Source: Octopus sinensis (lineage: Eukaryota). From it: a stretch of DNA of 64,000 nt. The notes under the pieces were generated by a model that worked only from the letters and a program-made list of their open reading frames with translations, did no database searches and was not told the DNA's origin. Of this stretch, positions 53,553 through 54,350 are shown in pieces. The translations under genes and the position numbers were made by a program. How positions within the stretch are numbered: position 1 is the first letter of the stretch; each line of letters begins with the position of its first letter. Location of the stretch: positions 4,650,001 to 4,714,000 of the forward strand of contig NC_043012.1 in the NCBI RefSeq assembly GCF_006345805.1, read 5' to 3'.

Positions 53553-54350
53553 TAATAGAAATATTAAAATAACTAAGTCTCTCTAAAAGAGAACAGCGGC
53601 AGCGTTCCCGAAAATAATAGTTATCGCCATACTAATATGGCATTCTTATAAAATAAGAAAAAAGCTGTCCGCTTATTAGCTCCATGAGGCCATCGCTTAA
53701 GTTAGCTATTTGATACACAAACTGTATCCATATACCTTCGAACAAGGAGGTCAGTCGCCACACTACTTTGACCGCAGCTACAGACGCGTTTCGGGTATTG
53801 CCCCTTTTCAATGCAGCTGCCGGTCAAGTAGTGTGGAGCGACTGACCCTCCTTGTTCGAGGTTATAATGGATACAGTTTGTGTATCAAATAGCTAACTTA
53901 AGCTGATGGCCTCATGGAGCTAATAAGCGGACAGCTTTTTCTTCTTTTATAAGAATGCAATATTAGTATGGCGATAACTATTATTTTCCGGGAACGCTGC
54001 CGCTGTTCTCTTTTAGAGAAGACTTAGTTATTTTAATATTCTATTATTGAAAACAAGTGGATGTATTCCACCGAAACTAGGTACATAAAACCATCGACAG
54101 AGATTGTCGGAAGCGACACCTACTGGCTGGCTACGCTCATGGAAAAGGGGCAATACCCCCGAAACGCGTCTGTAGCTGCCGGTCAAGTAGTGTGGAGCGA
54201 CTGAAGCTCCCTTGTTCGAAGTTATATGGATACAGTTTTGTGTATCAAATAGCTAACTTAAGGCGATGGCCTCATGGAGCTAATAAGCGGAACAGCTTTT
54301 TTCTTATTTTTATAAGAATGCCATATTAGTATGGCGATAACTATTATTTT
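53553..54350. mobile_element. Retrozyme/pLTR-like array: one inverted plus about 1.5 direct copies of a 360-bp unit
   Basis: cggtcaagtagtgtggagcgactga occurs at 53821 and 54180; 53553-53820 is the inverted copy; (TA)n flanks; no meaningful ORF. Confidence 0.85.
53774..53820 (-). ncRNA. Hammerhead motif, U3-A8 core variant, 9-bp stem I
   Basis: Minus strand: GCAGCTGCA TTGAAAA GGG GCAATA CCC GAAA CGCG TC TGTAGCTGC; degenerate direct copy at about 54129-54179. Confidence 0.85.

What the first reader, a model, noticed from the sequence alone, without database searches (positions are those of the whole stretch)
53553..54350. 360-bp tandem unit delimited by hammerheads: candidate retrozyme producing a circular RNA
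Seen: unit period of about 360 bp (53821 to 54180), a hammerhead at the unit junction (best copy on the minus strand at 53774-53820: 9-bp stem I, U3-A8 core, CGCG stem III, GUC site), a second hammerhead-like motif inside the unit at about 54047-54085 (TTGAAAA..GTGG/CCAC..GAAA CTAG), no coding capacity and (TA)n flanks. Established: non-LTR retrozymes are tandem repeats of a few hundred bp with minimal hammerheads that yield monomeric linear and circular RNAs. Inference: this is such a family, here combined with a Penelope-type 5' inversion.
Basis: partly seen in the sequence, partly recalled or inferred. Interest (0 to 1): 0.8.

Follow-up and report, generated by a model that had tools for sequence, protein, structure and literature searches.

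The report
Penelope-driven ribozyme repeat with LINE parasite
This is one short copy of a 362-base, protein-free repeat family with a predicted self-cutting (hammerhead) RNA; its insertion ends show that it is likely spread by Penelope-type transposon enzymes, and other copies carry a second transposon inserted at one exact spot inside the repeat.

Summary
The repeat and its junction hammerhead are real. The window holds one 0.8-kb insertion between (TA)n tracts: a 265-bp inverted arm and a 1.5-unit forward arm of a 362-bp unit. The genome has 1,697 exact matches to the hammerhead pattern (control 0), in several subfamilies, with arrays up to 22 units. The hammerhead (U3-A8 core, palindromic loop 3, dimer type) covaries across subfamilies. 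The second, in-unit hammerhead is not supported. This copy has one hammerhead per strand, so it cannot release a monomer. New: inverted insertions end at two fixed sites 63 nt apart, one at each end (39 of 42, 26 of 28, 11 of 16). That is the Penelope 'tail' signature and points to Penelope enzymes as the mobiliser, a question the papers read leave open. Also new: a young 5.36-kb LINE sits at one position of the unit (36 of 40 top 3' ends, 17-bp duplication); the window's site is empty. Cleavage, circular RNA and the autonomous partner were not shown.

The parts
53500..53551 (.). (TA)n tract, left target flank
53552..53817 (-). Inverted arm, unit positions 327-362 then 1-238; outer end is the long end (position 238, with tail)
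53552..53613 (-). About 63-nt tail between the two fixed 3' ends (unit 176-238), at this end only
53777..53817 (-). Type I hammerhead HHR1: 6-bp stem I, U3-A8 core, stem II (one C short here), CGCG palindrome; predicted cut between 53783 and 53782
53812..53817 (.). Inversion junction: 6-nt overlap between the 5' strand of stem I and the first bases after the cut site; the forward arm starts at the predicted cut site
53812..54170 (+). One full unit (359 bp here, 362 bp in the family)
54047..54083 (+).
54109..54125 (+). Empty 17-bp target site (unit 301-317), duplicated where the site-specific LINE sits in other copies
54135..54176 (+). Junction hammerhead HHR1 with U4->G and one lost stem-I base (mutation or assembly error); predicted cut between 54170 and 54171
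54171..54350 (+). Partial second unit (1-178); outer end is the short, tail-less end
54351..54379 (.). (TA)n tract, right target flank

Best explanation
The feature is a short copy of a non-coding 362-bp tandem repeat family with a conserved hammerhead fold, likely a non-LTR retrozyme that is likely copied into (TA)n tracts by the enzyme of an autonomous Penelope-like element (PLE). Steps. (1, inferred) Multi-unit arrays are transcribed. (2, predicted) Two HHR1 copies pair through the loop-3 palindrome and cut at GUC, freeing a 362-nt monomer whose ends are held together by a long rod. (3, inferred, about 0.6) The monomer is ligated to a circle. (4, inferred from the ends) A PLE protein nicks both strands of (TA)n and starts reverse transcription at two fixed sites, unit 175 and 238, one from each target end. 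(5, inferred) The two cDNAs run for partial or several units and join by microhomology, giving an inverted element with one tailed and one tail-less end. Shown: the architecture, the paired ends, the target, the covariation, the variant sharing. The window copy is an end product and cannot release a monomer. Separately (shown at DNA level), a young APE-type LINE inserts at unit 301-317, just upstream of HHR1.
For: Paired ends: one short (170-180) and one long (232-240) outer end in 39 of 42 inverted loci chosen only for a long end, 26 of 28 in the best-hit set, 11 of 16 in subfamily B; 256 exact long-end/(AT) junctions, control 0. PMC11167929 ties the PLE tail to two RT start sites, nicking of both strands and AT-rich targets and calls the tail unique to PLEs; PMC8557442 describes tandem/inverted copies with a tail often at one end only. 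HHR1: 96.1% of cells paired, 19 double changes, 0 of 500 shuffles as high; loop 3 palindromic in 203 of 213 motifs with three different palindromes, U3-A8 core in 210 of 213. Circular monomer -121.9 kcal/mol against -84.1 +/- 5.8 (z -6.5; subfamily B z -6.8); 9 of 77 consensus pairs compensatory. Eight variants private to one locus are in every copy there, five of them in both arms, as expected if one monomer was the template. The short-end arm is the longer arm in 34 of 65 loci, so it is not a fold-back copy of the other arm. The genome holds many PLEs with RT plus GIY-YIG, some with open frames near 780 aa, U3-A8 hammerheads and (TA)n ends.
Against: No autonomous PLE sharing sequence with the unit was found: 38 GIY-YIG loci, 30 loci of a second PLE lineage, 30 of a third; 3' regions of four PLE copies scored no better than shuffles. 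The tail is 63 nt, longer than the 30-40 bp in print. No spike of 5' ends at the cut site in the unbiased set: 2 observed, 2.05 expected within positions 359-5; only a step (10 against 4.1 at 1-18, 0 against 3.9 at 345-362; windows chosen after looking, 7 tested). 18 private variants are in only some copies of a locus (13 in three long arrays, 5 in short ones). Rfam finds no hammerhead. The covariation control ignores relatedness, and the structure came from the same alignment. In PMC11167929 hammerhead cleavage was not needed for PLE insertion in vitro, and in the 2026 preprint 8 of 9 tested retrozyme dimers did not cleave. That a U3-A8 core cleaves is recalled, not read here.
Confidence: 0.82

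Rival explanations
1. Same PLE-driven family, but the template is a linear multimer, or a cut linear monomer re-entered by template jumps; no circle is involved and the hammerhead may cut rarely.
For: No RNA evidence here. Hammerhead cleavage was dispensable for PLE insertion in vitro. No sharp 5'-end spike at the cut site. Five private variants in only some copies of short loci. This rival shares the PLE step with the best explanation and differs in steps 2-3.
Against: Eight private variants in all copies of a locus need a one-unit bottleneck; the conserved rod closes across the cut site; tested animal retrozymes of this size are largely circular (PMC7229834).
Confidence: 0.3
2. The copies are 5'-truncated pLTR remnants of an autonomous PLE not yet found, not an independent non-autonomous family.
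For: PLE-type ends and inversions; hammerheads lie in pLTRs (PMC4209133). Only three PLE lineages were sampled out of thousands of candidates.
Against: Arms pass from unit to unit with no ORF, up to 22 units. PLE ORF remnants near 8 of 104 unit loci screened lie beyond a (TA)n end, on the other strand or are the wrong part of the ORF. At least three subfamilies keep the 362-bp period and the whole-unit fold.
Confidence: 0.08
3. A satellite spread by DNA-level processes, with a relic hammerhead.
For: Long arrays show blocks of partly shared variants, as local unequal exchange gives (L031).
Against: Hundreds of dispersed short insertions with fixed 3' ends, variable 5' ends, inversions and one target type; compensatory changes in the RNA fold.
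Confidence: 0.04
4. The repeat is mobilised by a LINE, possibly the one that inserts into it (SINE-like partnership).
For: The LINE is young (copies 97-99.6% alike), has open ORFs and is physically tied to the unit. PMC7229834 names LINEs as possible mobilisers.
Against: The unit shares no 3' tail with this LINE; the LINE's own insertions have a 17-bp duplication at unit 301-317, unlike the unit's two-site, inverted (TA)n insertions; LINE lineages and host haplotypes are reassorted.
Confidence: 0.04

Closest known systems
Non-LTR retrozymes of animals (mussel 350-390 bp, axolotl 330/350 bp, coral; PMC7229834; bioRxiv 10.64898/2026.07.22.740005)
   Same: Non-coding tandem unit of about 360 bp, one type I hammerhead per unit with a short palindromic helix III that needs a dimer, strongly folded predicted circle, dispersed dimers to multimers.
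   Different: U3-A8 core. Fixed paired ends, inversions and (TA)n target: the word 'inverted' is absent from PMC7229834, 'tail' and 'junction' from the preprint, which argues PLE origin from co-occurrence and pLTR homology. No RNA or cleavage data here.
EN+ Penelope-like elements (Penelope/Poseidon, Neptune, Naiad; PMC11167929, PMC8557442, PMC4209133)
   Same: Partial tandems, inverted 5'-truncated arm, tail at one end, AT-rich or (TA)n target, type I hammerhead with palindromic loop; the U3-A8 variant is described in schistosome PLE hammerheads.
   Different: No ORF; tail 63 nt, not 30-40; near-strict one-long-one-short pairing, whereas the anole PLE in vitro showed no strand difference in start site.
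Non-autonomous PLE derivatives such as MRC1 of Chlamydomonas (passage in PMC8557442)
   Same: ORF-less, head-to-tail insertions with pLTR-like repeats.
   Different: Those resemble their autonomous partner at the 3' end and belong to a clade without canonical hammerheads; here no partner sequence was found and a hammerhead is conserved.
Target-specific Tx1-clade LINEs (Tx1L in Tx1D, Keno in U2, Tx1-Mar in Mariner, satellite-targeting families; passages in PMC4494074)
   Same: For the nested LINE: ORF1 with zinc knuckle, ORF2 with AP endonuclease, RT and zinc domain; one fixed site in a multicopy repeat; LINE-LINE tandems at the site.
   Different: The target is a hammerhead retrozyme, 45 nt upstream of the cut site; nearly all copies seen are full length. 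The clade was not tested by a tree; whether a listed 'satellite' target is a retrozyme was not checked.

Membership tests
Non-LTR retrozyme | Tandem unit of a few hundred bp, dimers to multimers | tested here: met
   362 bp, arrays to 22 units; window copy 1.5 units
Non-LTR retrozyme | Type I hammerhead in each unit | tested here: met
   U3-A8 variant; not found by Rfam; plus-strand window copy mutated
Non-LTR retrozyme | No protein coding | tested here: met
Non-LTR retrozyme | Highly self-paired predicted circular monomer | tested here: met
   z -6.5 and -6.8
Non-LTR retrozyme | Self-cleavage at the hammerhead | not testable with these tools
   only an indirect, weak 5'-end signal
Non-LTR retrozyme | Monomeric linear and circular RNA in cells | not testable with these tools
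   no run on record as RNA; contigs only
Autonomous EN+ PLE | ORF with RT and GIY-YIG between pLTRs | tested here: not met
   no PLE ORF in the window or continuous with any unit arm
PLE-mobilised element | Two fixed 3' ends (tail), often at one end only | tested here: met
PLE-mobilised element | Partial tandem and inverted 5'-truncated arrangement | tested here: met
   42 of 52, 28 of 40, 16 of 30 loci inverted
PLE-mobilised element | AT-rich or microsatellite target | tested here: met
   the 52-locus set was chosen for (AT)n at one end, its other end is the free test
PLE-mobilised element | Sequence shared with the pLTR of an autonomous partner | tested here: inconclusive
   none in 98 loci of three lineages; survey incomplete
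Target-specific Tx1-type LINE (nested element, not in the window) | ORF1 zinc knuckle; ORF2 AP endonuclease, RT, zinc domain | tested here: met
Target-specific Tx1-type LINE (nested element, not in the window) | One insertion site with target duplication | tested here: met
   36 of 40 3' ends; 9 of 10 further 5' ends
Target-specific Tx1-type LINE (nested element, not in the window) | RT falls in the Tx1 clade | not tested
   no named reference among hits; the label rests on architecture and recall

The most novel reading that the evidence does not exclude
A three-tier parasite chain: a PLE enzyme copies a circular 362-nt ribozyme RNA from two fixed start sites at once, one per target strand, and a LINE has evolved to insert just upstream of that ribozyme, riding the retrozyme's transcription while the flanking hammerheads cut out a LINE RNA with target-matching ends, which would explain why almost every LINE copy is full length.
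Probability: 0.35. Interest if true: 0.82.

Novelty: new variant of a known kind. Interest (0 to 1): 0.62.

Why it matters
Which enzyme moves animal retrozymes is left open in PMC7229834 (LINEs or PLEs) and is argued only from co-occurrence and pLTR likeness in a 2026 preprint. Here the insertion ends carry the PLE two-start-site signature, with a near-strict one-long-one-short rule that any PLE mechanism must explain, and a 362-nt RNA gives a small substrate for the existing in vitro PLE assay. A LINE that targets one site in a ribozyme repeat was not found in my searches; it would be a new kind of safe-haven target and a testable case of one element borrowing another's ribozyme. The retrozyme by itself is a new member of a known kind.

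Tried and rejected
RNA evidence: no RNA holder listed (20 of 23 rows hold most words, none on record as RNA). Four of these runs, all contigs, were laid on 53400-54500: they read the family letters where the window copy differs and say nothing on expression, ends or circles.

Rfam: only microsatellite noise.

Second hammerhead: rejected; no excess of 5' ends at its would-be cut site, 2 against 1.5 expected.

Partner search: three PLE lineages, no shared sequence. The matches were separate retrozyme insertions beside PLE copies; one of them revealed subfamily B.

Fold-back model (second arm copied from the first): rejected, the short-end arm is longer in 34 of 65 loci.

Idea that host sequence travels with the LINE: a downstream variant was in 8 of 25 LINE-adjacent units and 0 of 149 LINE-free units, but it belongs to a host haplotype that my exact-match pattern had excluded, and LINE variants reassort against it; dropped.

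One search used a pattern one base too long (12 matches), corrected. The 16-nt LINE-end pattern is unspecific (92 matches, control 30); 35 of 92 continue into the target, the other 57 are not shown to be this LINE.

LINE naming: no informative names. Earlier findings: none. A paper recalled on small PLE hammerhead variants that cleave as dimers was not held; two searches for U3-A8 activity data gave none.

Full report
1. What is in the window. Self-alignment and comparison with a natural family copy give one insertion at 53552-54350 between (TA)n tracts. With position 1 as the first base after the hammerhead's GUC, the minus-strand arm (53817 down to 53552) covers unit 327-362 and 1-238, and the plus-strand arm (53812-54350) covers 1-362 and 1-178. 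The arms overlap by 6 nt in hammerhead stem I. No other copy and no PLE ORF match lies in the window. The copy differs from the family mostly by single-base indels, about four times the family rate, which suggests a poor consensus rather than age. The genome is 2.72 Gb; its repeats looked to me like those of an octopus, which is recall and was not tested.

2. The family. The unit search gave 1,276 candidates, 40 scored. The unit is 362 bp; one array has 22 units. A hammerhead pattern has 1,697 exact matches, reversed control 0. There are several subfamilies; B is about 83% alike to A and has the same period, and others lie between. The longest stop-free stretch is 55-62 codons.

3. The junction hammerhead (HHR1). 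Type I, 6-bp stem I continued by a longer helix after an internal loop, U3-A8 core, 4-bp stem II, 2-bp helix III with a palindrome. In 21 aligned copies 96.1% of cells pair and 19 cells show double changes, above all 500 shuffles. The number of pairs with double changes (4) was not above shuffles (117 of 500), the control ignores relatedness, and the structure came from this alignment. Among 213 motifs in held loci, loop 3 is CGCG 155, CATG 45 and CTAG 3 times; the other 10 are single-base variants; the core varies almost only at position 7, the free position. PMC4209133 describes this dimer design and the U3-A8 variant in PLEs. Rfam did not detect it. In the window the plus-strand copy has U4->G and each strand has one hammerhead, so this locus cannot free a monomer; multi-unit arrays elsewhere could.

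4. The second motif. It lacks stem I, its core letters pair in a hairpin, and its GAAA is not conserved (25 of 25 B copies GUAA; 7 of 15 units without GAAA), while the small hairpin in it is kept in 15 of 15. It may be a relic; it is better read as structure beside the long end.

5. Whole-unit fold. As a circle the monomer folds at z -6.5 (A) and -6.8 (B) against 60 shuffles; the reverse strand folds less well (-104 and -101 kcal/mol, no shuffle control). A rod pairs the sequence before the cut site with the sequence after it. The consensus of 15 units has 77 pairs, 9 with compensatory changes.

6. Insertion ends. I took the first 56 of 256 listed long-end junctions and dropped 4 already held, leaving 52. 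Of these, 42 are inverted; in 39 the other end is the short end (170-180), 1 has two long ends, 2 end elsewhere. In the best-hit set (50 loci, 10 overlapping ones dropped, window included; not chosen for ends) 26 of 28 inverted loci pair long with short, none pairs like with like, and 11 of 12 single arms end at one of the two sites. Subfamily B: 11 of 16, with 2 long-long and 3 other; its query ended at the long site, so one end was preselected. Independent choice of ends could give at most half mixed pairs. PMC11167929 shows that a purified PLE protein nicks and extends both strands of AT-rich DNA, starts at two adjacent internal sites that bound the genomic tail, and calls this unique to PLEs. 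PMC8557442 describes tandem and inverted copies, a 30-40-bp tail often at one end, and (TA)n bias. I infer PLE mobilisation. The inner 5' ends are variable (median arm 250 bp) and cluster near palindromes at unit 44-49 (14 observed in 37-54, 4.6 expected) and 79-84 (6, 1.9), which suggests joining by microhomology (windows chosen after looking).

7. Template. Eight substitutions private to one of 89 loci occur in every copy at that locus, five in both arms, for example 5 of 5 copies in L008 and in L029 (two loci of other subfamilies and one LINE locus left out). A one-unit bottleneck followed by multimer synthesis explains this; a circle is the simplest form, template jumping or conversion are alternatives. 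Against: 18 private variants are partial, and 132 variants are in single copies. Evidence for cutting in cells is weak: 6 of 39 other best-hit loci have an arm starting within 4 nt of the cut site (a set biased to full units), but the unbiased set shows only a step, no spike.

8. Partner. The genome is rich in PLEs (5,029, 14,783 and 4,434 first-look candidates). One lineage has open RT plus GIY-YIG frames and a hammerhead with the same core and loop-3 palindrome as subfamily B, about 65 nt before a (TA)n end. None of 98 loci shares unit sequence as its own pLTR, and four 3' regions scored at shuffle level. The partner is unknown.

9. A LINE that targets the unit (not in the window). Three of the 52 loci held a 5.36-kb LINE: ORF1 frame 512 aa with a zinc knuckle, ORF2 frame 1,140 aa with endonuclease, RT and zinc domain, copies 97-99.6% alike. 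A search with its last 181 bp gave 113 candidates, 40 scored. Of these 40, 36 run into unit position 301-302 (29 of 30 fetched; 7 more; two of the 36 continue into a further LINE after the duplication), 1 has the site at its 5' end only, 2 are off target and 1 was not examined. The query's last two bases overlapped the junction, but matches lacking them sit at the same site. Nine of 10 further 5' ends follow unit position 317; the tenth is deleted. The duplication is 17 bp. A 69-bp truncated copy with a shorter duplication and reassortment of LINE variants against host haplotypes indicate independent insertions. 28 of 30 copies extend at least 1.67 kb, one is truncated and one is cut by an assembly gap. 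In one locus five successive sites are all filled, which I cannot explain. Tx1-clade LINEs are known to target small-RNA genes, transposons and satellites (PMC4494074); the clade of this one is untested. That it uses the retrozyme's transcript and hammerheads is inference.

10. Literature seen. bioRxiv 10.64898/2026.07.22.740005: parts 1-3 of 5 and a term search. PMC4209133: parts 1-2 of 4. PMC11167929: parts 1-2 of 4. PMC7229834: passages and parts 3-4 of 6. PMC8557442 and PMC4494074: passages only. No supplements were read; the PLE file of PMC8557442, the preprint's tables and Repbase may already hold this family, its partner or the LINE. Searches for prior reports; none listed a paper on PLE tails in retrozymes or on a LINE in a retrozyme, but the library lacks most subscription papers.

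11. Verdict. A real, likely retrozyme family; this copy is an inert end product. It works like a non-autonomous PLE. All sequence-level tests for a non-LTR retrozyme are met; the RNA-level tests could not be run. Paired PLE ends and the nested site-specific LINE make it a new variant. Interest 0.62.

Noticed in passing
L193:3148-8510, L192:2344-7692, L194-L223, L254-L273: Young APE-type LINE inserted at unit 301-317 with a 17-bp duplication; nearly all copies full length; LINE-LINE tandems at the site (L197, L205).
   Followed up: yes
L254-L257 (G000:C3:72500871-72529901): One inverted retrozyme insertion with long and short ends in which five successive target sites each hold a full LINE (29 kb); these LINEs are no closer to each other than to distant copies. 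Local saturation or copying of a LINE-bearing unit, unresolved.
   Followed up: partly
L081-L087, L141:2661-5670: Young autonomous PLE lineage with two overlapping frames (about 480 and 780 aa), a U3-A8 hammerhead about 65 nt before the (TA)n end and an apparent tail of about 35 nt.
   Followed up: partly
L084, L088, L054: Second PLE family with a C3-G8 hammerhead and a GTAC palindrome in its 3' region; several more PLE families with their own hammerhead-like 3' ends (L040, L046, L069).
   Followed up: partly
L224-L253: Very abundant young PLE lineage with a Cys-rich linker before the nuclease (14,783 candidates; 87 of 150 scored matches identical over 100 aa) and a long pyrimidine-rich 3' region.
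   Followed up: partly
L031:1159-9299: 22-unit array with blocks of partly shared variants, a sign of later local amplification.
   Followed up: partly
G000:C1:28192959-28195161: Hammerhead pattern matches spaced about 724 bp apart: an array in which every second unit seems to carry a changed hammerhead.
   Followed up: no
window 19155-19523, 51581-51944, 52526-52761: Dispersed repeat in partial tandems of 184-185 bp, a common short interspersed family of this genome; not examined for ribozymes beyond the Rfam scan of 50000-58000.
   Followed up: no
window 55343-55619: Inverted repeat with 109-nt arms 93% complementary and a 59-nt spacer, probably a miniature DNA transposon.
   Followed up: no
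window 29740-30766, 34604-35185, 38350-38709: Frames that read like decayed LINE-type coding remnants; 30431-30478 matches the nested LINE weakly (48 bp, 85%).
   Followed up: no
window, near 48680-48780: Run of 100 N (assembly gap).
   Followed up: no
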